Shown piece after piece: positions 3,430-60,316 of a DNA stretch of 64,000 nt. The translations under genes were made by a program, and so were the position numbers. Under the pieces are notes generated by a model. The model made no database searches, was not told the DNA's origin, and saw only the letters and a program-made list of their open reading frames with translations. Positions within the stretch are counted from its first letter, which is position 1. Each line of letters begins with the position of its first letter. The DNA is from the human T2T-CHM13v2.0 reference genome, Homo sapiens. The stretch is taken from assembly GCF_009914755.1 (NCBI RefSeq), contig NC_060947.1. One strand, 5' to 3'.

Positions 3430-4357
3430 GAGGCCATTCCAAGATTGCCGAATAGGAACAGCTCCAGTCTACAGCTCCCAGCGTGAGCGACATAGAAGAT
3501 GGGTGATTTCTGCATTTCCAACAGAGGTGCCGGGTTCATCTCACTGGGGCTTCTCAGACTGTGGGGACAGGACAGAGGGTACAGCCCACCAAGCATGAGC
3601 CAAAGCAGGGAGAGACATCACCTCACCAGGGAAGAGCAAGGGATCAGGGAATTCCCTTTCCTAGTCAAGGGAAGTGGTGATGGATGTCACCTGGAAAATC
3701 AGGTCACTCCCGCCTTAATACTGTGCTTTTCCAACGGTCTTAGCAAACAGCACACCAGGAGATTTTATCCCTCACCTGGCTCAGATACTCCCATGCCCAT
3801 GGAGTCATGCTCATTGCTAGCACAGCAGTCTGAGATCAAACTGGAAGCTCGAAACAGGAGGAGCCCACTGCAGCTCAAGGAGGCCTGCCTGCCTCTGTAG
3901 ACTCCACCTCTGGGGGCAGGGCGTAGCCAAACAAAAGGCAGCAGAAACCTCTGCAGACTTAAATGTCCCCATCTGACAGCTTTGAAGAGAGTAGTGGTTT
4001 TCCCAGCATGGAGTTTGAGATCTGACAATGGACAGACTGCCTCCTTAAGTGGGTCCCTGACCCCCCAGTAGGGGCAGACTGACACCTCAAATGGCCGGGT
4101 ACCTCTCTGAGATGAAGTTTCCAGAGGAATGATCAGGCAGCAACATTTGCTGTTCAGCAATATTTGATGTTCTGCAGCTCTGCTGCTGATACCCAGGCAA
4201 ACAGGGTCCAGAGTGGACATCCAGCAAACTCCAACAGACCTGCAGCTGAGGTTCCTGACTGTTAGAAGGAAAACTAACAAACAGAAAGGACACCCACACC
4301 AAAACTCCATCTGTACGTCACCATCATCAAAGACCAAAGGTAGATAAAACCACAAAG

Positions 4358-5374
4358 ATGGGGAAAAAACAAAGCAGAAAAGCTGAAAATTCTAAAAATC
4401 AGAGTGCCTCTCCCCCTCCAAAGGAATGCAACTCCTTGCCAGCAACAGAACAAAGCTGGACAGAGAATGAGTTTGACGAGTGGACAGAAGAAGGCTTCAG
4501 ATGATCAAACTTCTCCAAGCTAAAGGAGGAAGTTTGAACCCTTCGCAAAGAAGCTAAAAACCTTGAAAAAAGAGTAGACGAATGGCTAACTAGAATAACT
4601 AGTGTAGAGGAGTCCTTAAATGGCCTGATGGAGCTGAAAACAATGGCATGAGAACTACATGACACATGGACAAGTGTCAGTAGCCAATTGATCAACTGGA
4701 ATAAAGGGTATCAGTGATTTAAGATCAAATGAATGAAATGAAGCAAGAAGAGAAATTTAGAGAAAAAAGAGGAAAAAGAAACAAACAAAGCCTCCAAGAA
4801 ATATGGGACTATTTGAAAAGACAAAATCTACATCTGATTGGTGTACCTGAAAGTGATGGGGAGAATGGAACCGAGTTGGAAAACACATTGCAGGATATTA
4901 TCCAGGAGAACTTCCCCAATCTAGCAAGGCAGGCCAACATTCAAATTCAGGAAATACAGAGAAAACCACAAAGATACTCCTCAAGAAGAGCAACTCCAAG
5001 ACACATAATTGTCAGATTCACCAAAGTTGAAATGAAGGAAAAAATCTTAAGAGCAGCCAGAGAGAAAGGTCGGGTTACCCACAAAGGGAAGCCCATCACA
5101 CTAACAGCTGATATCTTGGCAGAAACTCTAGAAGCCAGAAGAGAGTGGGGGCCAATATTCAACATTCTTAAAGAAAAGAATTTTCAACCTAGAATTTCAT
5201 ATCCAGCCAAACTAAGCTTCATAAGTAAAGAAGAAATAAAATATTTTACAGACAAGCAAATGCTGAGAGATTTTGTCACCAACAGGCCTGCCCCTAAAAG
5301 AGCTCCTGAAGGAAGCACTAAACATGGAAAGGAACAACCGGTACCAGCCATTGGAAAAGCATGCCAAATTGTAA
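4358..5374 (+). pseudogene. L1 ORF1p remnant of copy A (stops and frameshifts)
   Basis: ATG GGG AAA AAA start; ORF 4729-5430 carries RRM/CTD sequence (RYSSRRATPRHIIVRF, YPAKLSF). Confidence 0.9.
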
Positions 5375-5437
5375 ACACCACTGATGCTAGGAAGAATCTG
5401 CATCAACTAACGAGCAAAATAACCAGCTGACATCATA

Positions 5438-57100: not shown

Positions 57101-60100
57101 ACAAGAACAAAGACACAACATACCAGAATCTCTGGGACACATTCAAAGCAGTGTGTAGAGGGAAATTTATAGCACTAAATGCCCACAAGAGAAAGCAGGA
57201 AAGATCTAAAATTGACACCCTAGCATCACGATTAAAAGAACTAGAGAAACAAAAGCAAACACATTCAAAAGCTAGCAGAAGACGTGAAATAACTAAGATC
57301 AGAACAGAACTGAAGGAAATAGAGACACAAAAAACCCTTCAAAAAATCAATGAATCCAGGAGCTGGTTTTTTGAAAAGATCAACAAAATTGATAGACTGC
57401 TACCAAGACTAATAAAGAAGAAAAGAGAGAAGAATCAAATAGGTGCAATAAAAAATGACAAAGGGGATATCACCACCGATCCCACAGAAATACAAACTAC
57501 CATCAGAGAATACTATAAACACTTCTATGCAAATAAACTGGAAAATCTAGAAGAAATGGATAAATTCCTTGACACATACATCGTCCCAAGACTAAACGAA
57601 GAAGAAATTGAATCTCTGAATAGACCAATAACAGGCTCTGAAGTTGAGGCAATAATTAATAGCTTACCAACAGAAAAAAGTCCAGGACCAGATGGATTCA
57701 GAGCCGAATTCTACCAGAGGTACAAGGAGGAGCTGGTGCCATTCCTTCTGAAACTATTCCAATCAATAGAAAAAGAGGGAATCCTCCCTCACTCATTTTA
57801 TGAGGCCAGCATCCTCCTGATACCAAAGCCAGGCAGAGACACAACCAAAAAAGAGAATTTTAGACCAATATCCCTGATGAACATTGAAGCAAAATTCTCA
57901 ATAAAATACTGTCAAACCGAATCCAGCAACACATCAAAAAGTTTATCCACCATGATCAAGTGGGCTTCATCCCTGGGATGCAAGGCTGGTTCAACACACA
58001 CAAATCAGTAAATGTAATCCAGCATATAAACAAAACCAAAGACAAAAACCACATGATTATCTCAATAGATGCAGAAAAGGCCTTTGACAAAATTCAACAA
58101 CCTTTCATGCTAAAAACTCTCAGTAAATTAGGTATTGATGGGATGTACCTCAAAATAAGAAGAGCTATCTATGACAAACCCACAGCCAATATCATACTGA
58201 ATGGACAGAAACTGGAAGCATTCCCTTTGAAAACTGGCAGAAGACAGGGATGCCCTCTCTCACCACTCCTATTCAACATAGTGTTGGAAGTTCTGGCCAG
58301 GGCAATGAGGCAGGAGAAGGAAATAAAGGGCATTCAATTATGAAATGGGGAAGTCAAATTGTCCCCGTTTGCAGATGACATGATTGTATATCCAGAAAAC
58401 CCCATCGTCTCAGCCCAAAATCTCCTTAAGCTGATAAGCAACTTCAGCAAATTCTCAGGATACAAAATCTATGTGCAAAAATCACAAGCATTCTTATACA
58501 CCAATAACAGATAAACAGAGAGCCAAATCATGAGTGAACTCTCATTCGCAATTGCTTCAAAGAGGATAAAATACCTATGAATCCAACTTACAAGGGATGT
58601 GAAGGACCTCTTCAAGGAGAACTACAAACCACTGCTCGATGAAATAAAAGAGGATACAAACAAATGGAAGAATATTCCATGCTCATGGGTAGGAAGAATC
58701 AATATCATGAAAATGGCCATACTGCCCAAGGTAATTTACAGATTCAATGCCATCCCTATCAAGCTACCAATGACTTTCTTCACAGAATTGGAAAAAACTA
58801 CTTTAAAGTTCATATGGAACCAAAAAAGAGCCTGCATTGCCAAGTCAATCCTAAGCCAAAAGAACAAAGCTGGAGGCATCACTCTACCTGATTTCAAACT
58901 AGACTACAAGGCTACAGTAACCAAAACAGCATGGTACTGGTACCAAAACAGATATATAGACCAATGAAACAGAACAGAGCCCTCAGAAATAATGCCACAT
59001 ATCTACAACTATCTGATCTTTGACAAACCTGACAAAAACTAGAAATGGGGAAATGATTCCCTGTTTAATAAATGGTGCTGGGAAAACTGGCTAGCCATAT
59101 GGAGAAAGCTGAAGCCGGATCCCTTCCTTACACCTTATACAAAAATTAATTCAAGATGGATTAAAGACTTACATGTTAGACCTAAAACCATAAAACCCCT
59201 AGAAGAAAACCTAGGCAATACCATTCAAGACATAGGCATGGGCAAGGACTTCATGTCTAAAACACCAAAAGCAATGGCAACAAAAGCCAAAATTGACAAA
59301 TGGGATCTAATTCAACTAAAGAGCTTCTGCACAGCAAAAGAAACCACCATCAGAGTGAACAGGCAACCTACAGAATGGGAGAAAATTTTTGCAACCTACT
59401 CATCTGACAAAGGGCTAATATCCACAATCTACAATGAACTCAAACAAATTTACAAGAAAAAAAAACAAACAACCCCATCAAAAAGTAGGCAAACGATATG
59501 AACAGACACTTCTCAAAAGAAGACGTTTATGCAGCCAAGAGACACATGAAAAAATGCTCATCATCACTGGCCATCAGACAAATGAAAATCAAAACCGCAA
59601 TGAGATACCATTTCACACCAGTTAGAATGGCGATCATTAAAAAGTCAGGAAACAACAGGTGCTGGAGAGGATGTGGAGAAACAGGAACACTTTTACACTG
59701 TTGGAACTGTAAACTAGTTCAACCATTGTGGAAGTCAGTGTGGCGATTCCTCAGGGATCTAGAACTAGAAATACCATTTGACCCAGCCATCCCATTACTG
59801 GGTATATACCCAAAGGATTATAAATTATGCTGCTATAAAGACACATGCACACGTATGTTTATTACAGCACTATTCACAATAGCAAAGACTTGGAACCAAG
59901 CCAAATGTCCAACTCTGATAGACTGGATTAAGAAAATGTGGCACATATACACCATAGAATACTATGCAGACATAAAAAATCATGAGCTCATGTCCTTTGT
60001 AGGGACATGGATGAAGCTGGAAACCATCATTCTCAGCAAACTATCGCAAGGACAAAAAACCAAACACTGCATGTTCTCACTCATAGGTGGGAATTGAACA

Positions 60101-60316
60101 ATGAGAACACATGGACACAGGAAGAGGAACATCACACACCGGGGCCTGCTGTGAGGTGGGAGAAGGGGGGGGAGGGATAGCATTAGGTGATATACCTAAT
60201 GCTAAATGATGAGTTAATGGGTGCAGCACACCCACATTTCACATGTATACATATATAACAAACCTGCACGTTGTGCACATGTACCCTAAAACTTAAAGTA
60301 TAATAATAATTTAAAA
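54186..60316 (+). mobile_element. Near-full-length L1 (L1PA4-like), first about 20 nt missing; copy D
   Basis: Starts gaataggaacagctcc; ORF1 55194-56209 and ORF2 56273-60097 remnants; 12-bp TSD aaagaacaaagc 54174-54185 / 60317-60328. Confidence 0.95.
56273..60097 (+). pseudogene. L1 ORF2p remnant of copy D
   Basis: MTGSNSHITILTLNVNGLN start, 521-aa ORF 56446-58011, multiple stops and frameshifts, C-terminus MFSLIGGN. Confidence 0.9.

What the first reader, a model, noticed from the sequence alone, without database searches (positions are those of the whole stretch)
3430..60316. Local L1 gene-conversion network (concerted evolution among neighbouring, independently inserted copies)
Copies A (3430), B (24311, minus), C (39991) and D (54186) each have their own TSD and flanks, so they are separate insertions. 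Yet non-consensus variants are shared in mutually incompatible patterns. A+C: acaCaatatac, aaactaAaactc, aagctGgcag, aatacCataa, gccaCa.gtagG. B+D: aaaaCtgacc, gaaGttgagg, gagGataaa, atatgGaga, ttaggTgat. C+D: gaaacAgcatcaacCaa (41790 / 56228) and the 45030-45150 block. A+D: ggagcacAcaga, ccctCactc. A+B and B+C: long identical tracts. A single tree cannot explain this, so repeated ectopic exchange within about 60 kb is inferred. Consensus states are recalled, not computed.
Basis: partly seen in the sequence, partly recalled or inferred. Interest (0 to 1): 0.8.

Follow-up and report, generated by a model that had tools for sequence, protein, structure and literature searches.

The report
Local sequence swaps between neighbouring L1 repeats
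Four old LINE-1 repeats on the human X chromosome are related mainly by ordinary family history, but one short stretch was clearly copied from one neighbour into another and one or two more may have been, a known repair by-product and not a network.

Summary
The four copies exist and are independent LINE-1 insertions, each with its own target-site duplication. Most of the claimed incompatibility does not hold. A+C and B+D are the two sides of one split (35 sites spread evenly). Two "A+C" motifs are also in B. The C+D (41790) and A+D (5792) motifs lie where B is absent. 10 of 18 AB|CD sites are CpG decay.

Real exchange is confined to discrete tracts:
- **C→B, decisive.** C 42515-42897 = B 27691-27309, inverted, about 15 kb apart, with a 404-bp identical run. 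Permutation p<0.0005. The next-best genome match is 95%, and unlinked pairs reach at most 149 bp.
- **C–D, probable and older.** C 44902-45332 / D 59345-59774 at 97.7% identity. Permutation p=0.001, and 0 of 130 control pairs reach its excess.
- **A–B, suggestive only.** 122 bp.

The neighbours are no more alike overall than unlinked copies (91.4-93.1% against a mean of 92.5%), so there is no concerted evolution. This is a known kind of event.

The parts
3430..9407 (+). L1 copy A, full length. Target-site duplications at 3413-3429 and 9404-9420.
24311..27896 (-). L1 copy B, 5'-truncated, with a (TAA)n tail. Target-site duplications at 27898-27910 and 24298-24310.
39991..45893 (+). L1 copy C, full length and degraded. 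Target-site duplications at 39976-39990 and 45894-45908. Frame fragments match L1 ORF1 and the ORF2 endonuclease.
   Evidence: PF02994 3.4e-24, PF17490 6.1e-40, PF14529 6.4e-09.
54186..60316 (+). L1 copy D, full length. Target-site duplications at 54174-54185 and 60317-60328. Inserted into an older L1 fragment.
42515..42897 (+). B-C conversion tract, donor side in C. These are the minimum limits; the maximum is 42471-42952. The identical run is 42529-42932.
27309..27691 (-). B-C conversion tract, acceptor side in B. These are the minimum limits; the maximum is 27254-27735. The identical run is 27274-27677.
44902..45332 (+). C-D high-identity tract in C. It has two patches, about 44902-45151 and 45238-45361, with a divergent gap between them.
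59345..59774 (+). C-D high-identity tract in D.
8199..8320 (+). Candidate short A-B tract in A: a 122-bp identical run that carries the rare TTT at 8289-8291 and G at 8258.
   Evidence: Not significant by length.
25417..25538 (-). Candidate short A-B tract in B.

Best explanation
A, B, C and D are four independently inserted, decayed primate LINE-1 copies. Their shared variants mostly reflect which source lineage each came from: A and C from an older state of the L1 lineage, B and D from a younger one. Parallel decay of CpG sites and other recurrent mutations add to this.

On top of that history there are a few discrete non-allelic (ectopic) gene-conversion tracts. The inferred mechanism is that a break in one L1 was repaired by copying a few hundred bases from a neighbouring L1 on the same chromosome, without a crossover.

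- **C to B (shown).** A recent C-to-B transfer of 383-482 bp between inverted copies about 15 kb apart. The direction is inferred from lineage markers.
- **C and D (probable).** An older exchange of about 430 bp, in two patches, between direct copies about 14 kb apart. The direction is unresolved.
- **A and B (possible).** A tract of at most 122 bp.

The exchanges are sporadic and have not homogenised the copies.
For: **B-C**
- A 404-bp identical run against 93.1% background identity; expected number of such runs 8e-11.
- 54 consecutive concordant polymorphic sites; 0 of 2000 permutations reach this.
- 17 of the 24 AD|BC sites fall in alignment columns 3250-3642.
- At 15 of 18 B=C-only sites in the tract, the shared state occurs in at most 4 of 28 of the best genome-wide relatives.
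- Genome-wide, B is the only other copy at 100%; the next best is 95% (40 of 3618 candidates scored).
- The longest run among 130 control pairs is 149 bp.
- B keeps its B/D-type states on both sides of the tract (columns 3144-3164 and 3699), and its target-site duplications are intact. That points to no crossover.
- Direction: inside the tract B carries A/C-lineage states at columns 3274, 3303, 3313, 3580 and 3588, while C carries no B/D-lineage state.

**C-D**
- Permutation global p=0.001 with mismatches allowed, 0.046 without.
- 97.7% identity in the tract against 91.1% elsewhere. The excess of 6.8 points compares with a control maximum of 5.1; 0 of 130 controls reach it.
- 5 of the 9 exclusive C-D rare states lie in 44902-45263.
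- 4 exclusive shared sites within 400 columns, against a control maximum of 3.
- No one of the 28 relatives carries the joint haplotype.

**The tree and homoplasy**
- AC|BD has 35 sites spread over the whole 3.8 kb. 10 of the 18 AB|CD sites are TG/CA decay of CpG.
- Unlinked pairs share on average 1.3-1.4 exclusive states. A-B has 2 and A-D has 2.
- A control segment of C has no window neighbour among its top 40 genome hits.
Against: **C-D is not unique by similarity alone.**
- By bit score, D is the 8th non-self hit, tied with two unlinked copies (five unlinked copies score higher). Seven unlinked copies are also 97% identical to C's tract.
- C-D identical runs of 102 bp (121 bp when skips gap columns) are ordinary: 31 of 130 control pairs have a run of 102 bp or more.
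- Each C-D variant taken singly occurs in dozens of copies.
- The C-D tract holds only about 5 donor-type shared variants, where about 9 would be expected for its apparent age (my estimate).

**A-B fails the length tests**.

**Limits of the reference samples.**
- A+C and B+D share some states that are rare in my samples.
- Those samples are biased toward young, little-diverged copies, and I could not classify subfamilies with a repeat library.

**Not examined.** No ape orthologue, second human assembly or read-level check was possible, so the state before conversion has not been seen directly.
Confidence: 0.8

Rival explanations
1. One reading: a pervasive local gene-conversion network, with concerted evolution linking all four copies in all six pairings.
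For: - Three tracts together touch all four copies.
- C takes part in two of them.
- The exclusive shared-state counts for A-C (4-5) and B-D (4) sit in the upper 3% of control pairs.
- A and C share a rare double variant right beside the A-B run.
Against: - The window pairs are no more similar overall than unlinked pairs.
- A-C, A-D and B-D show no tract, and the 5' half shows none either.
- A+C and B+D are one compatible split.
- The A-C double variant is made of two single changes, each present in many copies: 380 places lie within one mismatch.
- B-D variants also occur on other chromosomes.
- The longest A-C run is plain family sequence, with at least 40 identical copies in the genome.
Confidence: 0.1
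2. No local exchange at the C-D and A-B sites. Both pairs merely share rare sub-lineage or recurrent variants and happen to have few private mutations there. Only B-C is a real conversion.
For: - D is not the top genome-wide hit for C's tract.
- Single variants recur in dozens to hundreds of copies.
- The A-B length tests are not significant.
- One unlinked control pair shares 11 exclusive states, so sibling copies do exist.
Against: - 0 of 130 control pairs reach the C-D identity excess or its cluster of 4 exclusive sites.
- Permutation p=0.001.
- Outside the tract, C and D are only 91% identical and sit on opposite sides of the AC|BD split.
- The exact 35-mer with TTT occurs in only 3 places in 3.1 Gb, and two of them are A and B.
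Confidence: 0.2
3. The B-C identity is an assembly or polishing artefact in this assembly.
For: None from my calls. It is only a general risk in repeats.
Against: - The patch is about 450 bp with sharp limits, inside copies that differ by about 8% on both sides.
- The copies are about 15 kb apart and inverted.
- One difference survives inside the patch.
- A collapse or mis-join would not give this pattern. That last point is inference.
Confidence: 0.03

Closest known systems
Non-allelic gene conversion between neighbouring Alu elements. Aleshin and Zhi 2010, seen only as described in PMC6598467 section 4 and in passages of PMC8230782.
   Same: Dispersed retrotransposon copies that inserted independently exchange short tracts. 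The exchange favours close neighbours and, according to PMC6598467, hotspots on the sex chromosomes. It leaves mosaic patterns of lineage markers.
   Different: Here the partners are LINE-1 copies about 8% diverged, 14-17 kb apart (the quoted Alu range is about 10 kb), and one pair is inverted. PMC8230782 states that most transposon conversion studies concern Alu.
Non-allelic gene conversion between duplicated genes and segmental duplications. Harpak et al., bioRxiv 10.1101/135152, abstract only.
   Same: The tract size is of the same order: a mean of 250 bp there, against about 120-480 bp here. Transfer is non-reciprocal. The process slows as the copies diverge.
   Different: The partners here are not duplicates of one locus but separate insertions of a repeat family. 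I saw no GC bias: the transferred states are the donor's decay products (my tally).
Arm-to-arm gene conversion in sex-chromosome palindromes. PMC3723533, search listing and abstract start only.
   Same: Intrachromosomal exchange between inverted repeats on a sex chromosome, without inversion.
   Different: Palindrome arms are kept above 99.9% identical by frequent, multi-kilobase conversion. Here there is a single short patch in copies that are otherwise 93% identical.
Repair of a double-strand break in a LINE by gene conversion from endogenous LINEs in mouse cells. Recalled as Tremblay, Jasin and Chartrand 2000; not read here.
   Same: This is the repair mechanism I infer.
   Different: That was an induced break in cultured cells. 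This is a fixed germline outcome, and the break itself has not been seen.

Membership tests
LINE-1 (L1) retrotransposon insertion | Flanking target-site duplication and an A-rich 3' tail for each copy | tested here: met
   four different target-site duplications and four different tails.
LINE-1 (L1) retrotransposon insertion | Encodes L1 ORF1 and ORF2 domains | tested here: met
   copy C only: PF02994, PF17490, PF14529 and PF03372, all above their cut-offs. The other copies are assigned by 89-93% DNA identity to C.
   No repeat library was available. The rare-state load is 3.4-4.8% per copy. Together with the polarity of the AC|BD sites, this suggests A and C are older than B and D.
Non-allelic (ectopic) gene conversion tract | The partners are non-allelic copies of independent origin | tested here: met
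   No homology of the flanks was found.
Non-allelic (ectopic) gene conversion tract | A discrete tract of identity far above background, with sharp limits | tested here: met
   B-C. C-D. A-B is inconclusive.
Non-allelic (ectopic) gene conversion tract | The donor's private variants are present in the acceptor, and the haplotype is confined to the pair | tested here: met
   B-C. C-D. A-B: (3 exact places in the genome).
Non-allelic (ectopic) gene conversion tract | No crossover: flanking markers and insertion structure are kept | tested here: met
   One search shows B/D-type states on both sides of the tract in B. One search shows the target-site duplications intact.
Non-allelic (ectopic) gene conversion tract | The state before conversion is seen in an orthologue or in another haplotype | not testable with these tools
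   No ape or second human assembly was held.
Concerted evolution of a local repeat cluster | Local copies are more alike overall than unlinked copies of the same family | tested here: not met
   window pairs are 91.4-93.1% identical. The 130 control pairs average 92.5% (range 90.0-94.9%).

The most novel reading that the evidence does not exclude
This L1-dense Xq stretch may be a hotspot where old L1 copies that differ by 7-9% still serve as repair templates for each other. Three tracts touch all four copies within 57 kb, and one is young enough to be specific to the human lineage or even polymorphic. If X-linked breaks that lack a homologue in male meiosis are preferentially repaired from neighbouring L1s, then L1 ages and subfamily calls on the X would be systematically distorted, and L1-L1 exchange would be a measurable X-specific mutational process.
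Probability: 0.15. Interest if true: 0.55.

Novelty: new member of a known kind. Interest (0 to 1): 0.28.

Why it matters
- It is a clean, datable example showing that non-allelic gene conversion still acts between L1 copies only about 92% identical, inverted and 15 kb apart.
- It shows how easily subfamily splits and CpG decay can be mistaken for a conversion network.
- Such tracts can mislead divergence-based dating and subfamily assignment of repeats.
- They mark places where inverted repeats have interacted, which is also the substrate for inversions.
- It does not change what is known about the mechanism.

Tried and rejected
- **Older L1 copies as partners.** I tested E (about 17823-24250), F (about 49684-54000) and G (about 61500-63650, minus strand). 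The longest identical run to any of A-D is 61 bp, in a stretch shared by several pairs. Rejected.
- **5' half of A, C and D.** No tract. Polarising with E alone gives a near-star pattern: AC 11, AD 7 and CD 9 non-CpG sites.
- **Genome samples as a neutral reference.** I took the best genome-wide hits, 28 + 28 copies. They turned out to be biased toward young, near-family-typical copies. I therefore drew a second, less biased set of 20 copies on one B/D variant and used 13 of these 20 as controls, namely those with at least 3000 aligned bases; 7 were dropped for short coverage.
- **Whether B and D belong to a defined sub-lineage.**
  - Among the 20 carriers of the G variant, 0 of 15-18 have the other B-D rare states.
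  - The four other carriers of the G..A pair lack 44123G (0 of 3) and 45743T (0 of 4).
  - Unresolved. Chance plus small-lineage relatedness fits the control distribution: 4 of 130 controls have 4 or more exclusive states.
- **Requests that failed.**
- **Literature.** Searches for L1-specific neighbour conversion returned no paper in the held library that describes this locus or a systematic human L1-L1 neighbour scan. That does not show that none is in print.
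Full report
**What is there**

A self-comparison of the window finds four L1 copies that are 89-93% identical to each other: A 3430-9407(+), B 24311-27896(-, 5'-truncated), C 39991-45893(+) and D 54186-60316(+). It also finds three older L1 copies, E, F and G, at 72-87% identity. Frame fragments of C match L1 ORF1 (PF02994, PF17490) and the ORF2 endonuclease (PF14529, PF03372) above their cut-offs.

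Each copy has its own target-site duplication and a different tail:
- A: 17 bp, 15 of 17 matching.
- B: 13 bp, 11 of 13 matching.
- C: 15 of 15.
- D: 12 of 12.

All 13 of 13 motifs are present in the named copies, but they do not show what was claimed.
- The five A+C and five B+D motifs mark the same bipartition.
- Two of the A+C motifs (columns 3274 and 3580) are also in B.
- The C+D motif at 41790 and the A+D motif at 5792 lie upstream of B's truncation. Only three copies are compared there, so no pattern can conflict with a tree.
- Only ccctCactc (column 4098) is a true AD|BC site.

**Site patterns**

I aligned the seven copies and counted two-by-two patterns in the 3,779 columns shared by A-D.
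- **AC|BD: 35 sites** (22 non-CpG), spread evenly from column 3113 to column 6775.
- **AD|BC: 24 sites**, of which 17 lie in columns 3250-3642.
- **AB|CD: 18 sites.** Ten are CpG positions where the copies read TG or CA, that is, independent decay of one CpG. Five of the eight non-CpG sites lie in two short stretches (columns 5591-5624 and 6017-6023).

One tree, ((A,C),(B,D)), therefore fits everywhere except in two regions.

**B-C tract**

- In 250-column windows, B-C identity is 99.6% and 97.2% at columns 3250-3750, against about 91-94% elsewhere.
- The longest identical run is 404 bp (B 27677-27274 = C 42529-42932). The expected number of such runs is 8e-11.
- In a GENECONV-like test, 54 consecutive polymorphic sites agree, and 0 of 2000 column permutations reach that.
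- Limits: B differs from C at C 42470 and carries the B/D state at 42444 and 42953. The first and last B=C-only sites are 42515 and 42897. The tract is therefore 383-482 bp.
- Inside it there is one difference, at C 42528 (T in C, C in B and every other copy). C's private base at 42933 is absent from B.
- At 15 of the 18 B=C-only sites in the tract, the shared state is present in at most 4 of 28 of the best genome-wide relatives.
- A whole-genome search with the tract gives C and B at 100% and the next best copy at 95% (40 of 3618 candidates scored).
- A control segment of C (43500-43946) has no window neighbour among its top 40 hits.
- Among 130 control pairs that include unlinked copies of similar divergence, the longest run is 149 bp.
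- Direction: inside the tract B carries A/C-lineage states at columns 3274, 3303, 3313, 3580 and 3588, where D agrees with the older copy E and, at columns 3580 and 3588, also F. C carries no B/D-lineage state. I therefore infer that C was the donor and B the acceptor.
- The copies are inverted and about 15 kb apart. B's flanking markers and target-site duplications are intact, so there is no sign of a crossover.
- Age: one difference in about 460 bp, against 7.9% outside, puts the event at a few percent of the copies' age, and at most about 13% by a Poisson bound. This is my arithmetic.

**C-D tract**

- C 44902-45332 and D 59345-59774 are 97.7% identical, against 91.1% elsewhere.
- Permutation p is 0.001 with mismatches allowed and 0.046 without.
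- The excess of 6.8 points is reached by 0 of 130 control pairs; the control maximum is 5.1.
- 5 of the 9 exclusive C-D rare states lie in 44902-45263.
- There are 4 exclusive sites within 400 columns, against a control maximum of 3.
- None of 28 relatives carries the joint haplotype.

Evidence against it:
- By bit score, D is only the 8th non-self genome-wide hit (tied with two unlinked copies), and seven unlinked copies are also 97% identical.
- The runs of 102 bp (121 bp when skips gap columns) are ordinary: 31 of 130 control pairs have a run of 102 bp or more.
- Each variant taken singly occurs in dozens of copies. 148 places lie within one mismatch of the 32-mer, and C is the only exact match. 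D differs at the last base, which I infer.
- The tract has two patches separated by about 86 bp at background divergence.

I rate it probable, older than the B-C event, and of unresolved direction.

**A-B**

For:
- The 122-bp run (A 8199-8320 = B 25538-25417) is bounded on both sides by AC|BD sites.
- It is unique in the genome at 100%; the next best copy is 98% (40 of 1399 candidates scored).
- It holds a three-base change (TTT) whose exact 35-mer occurs in only 3 places in 3.1 Gb: A, B and one on another chromosome. One more of the 23 one-mismatch places keeps TTT.

Against:
- Run length is not significant: permutation p=0.19 for the pair, and 5 of 130 control pairs have a run of 122 bp or more.
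- Two adjacent exclusive sites occur in 1 of 130 control pairs.

I rate it suggestive only.

**A-C, B-D and A-D**

- No tract was found for any of these pairs.
- The longest A-C run (83 bp) is identical in at least 40 other copies.
- A+C states are often the older state, shared with E, F and G. They are missing from my first samples because those samples are biased toward younger copies.
- The A-C double variant next to the A-B run has only 2 exact genome matches. It is built from two single changes that are each common: 380 places lie within one mismatch.
- The B-D G variant occurs in 39 exact places. The B-D G..A pair occurs in 6 places, on four chromosomes.
- Carriers of these variants elsewhere lack the other B-D states.
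- Counts of exclusive shared states are A-C 5 (4 without the selected site), B-D 4, A-B 2 and A-D 2. The control mean is 1.3-1.4, 4 of 130 controls have 4 or more, and one unlinked sibling pair has 11.

**No global homogenisation**

Window pairs are 91.4-93.1% identical overall. The control pairs average 92.5% (range 90.0-94.9%).

**Comparison with what is known**

- Non-allelic conversion between dispersed repeats is established for Alu. It is elevated for close neighbours and at hotspots on the sex chromosomes (PMC6598467, section 4 read; PMC8230782, passages).
- PMC8230782 states that most such studies concern Alu.
- The mean tract length for human non-allelic conversion is given as 250 bp, and the process slows as copies diverge (bioRxiv 10.1101/135152, abstract).
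- The tracts found here fit that picture.
- My searches found no description of this locus in the held library.

**Verdict**

This is one clear and one probable instance of a known process, wrapped in an over-read of ordinary subfamily structure and CpG decay.

Noticed in passing
window 13897-15071 (GC-rich to about 15650): A (CTCTCC)n hexamer array at 13897-14013 is followed by GC-rich tandem repeats of 37-99 bp at 14391-15071. This layout is that of an SVA composite retrotransposon. The name is recalled, not tested.
   Followed up: partly
window 3301-3374 and 54055-54185 / 60329 onward: A and D are each nested inside fragments of older L1 copies. Their flanks match the ORF2 region of the other copies at 76-86%.
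   Followed up: partly
window 23766-24176 vs 24368-24787: The 3' ends of the older copy E (+) and of B (-) face each other about 190 bp apart. They form an inverted repeat of about 77% identity.
   Followed up: no
window 28867-29328 vs 37420-37881: A direct repeat of about 464 bp at 89.9% identity, not part of the L1 copies. Its identity was not determined.
   Followed up: no
L061 and L063 (different chromosomes): Two unlinked L1 copies share 11 exclusive states spread over 3.3 kb. They look like a sibling pair from one source lineage. This is a useful reminder that shared rare variants do not require local exchange.
   Followed up: partly
one search hit list (several places within about 2 Mb on C5 near 114-117 Mb and on C11 near 43 Mb): Copies carrying the same single variant of the C-D 32-mer cluster regionally on two other chromosomes. 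This could be segmental duplication or local exchange there.
   Followed up: no
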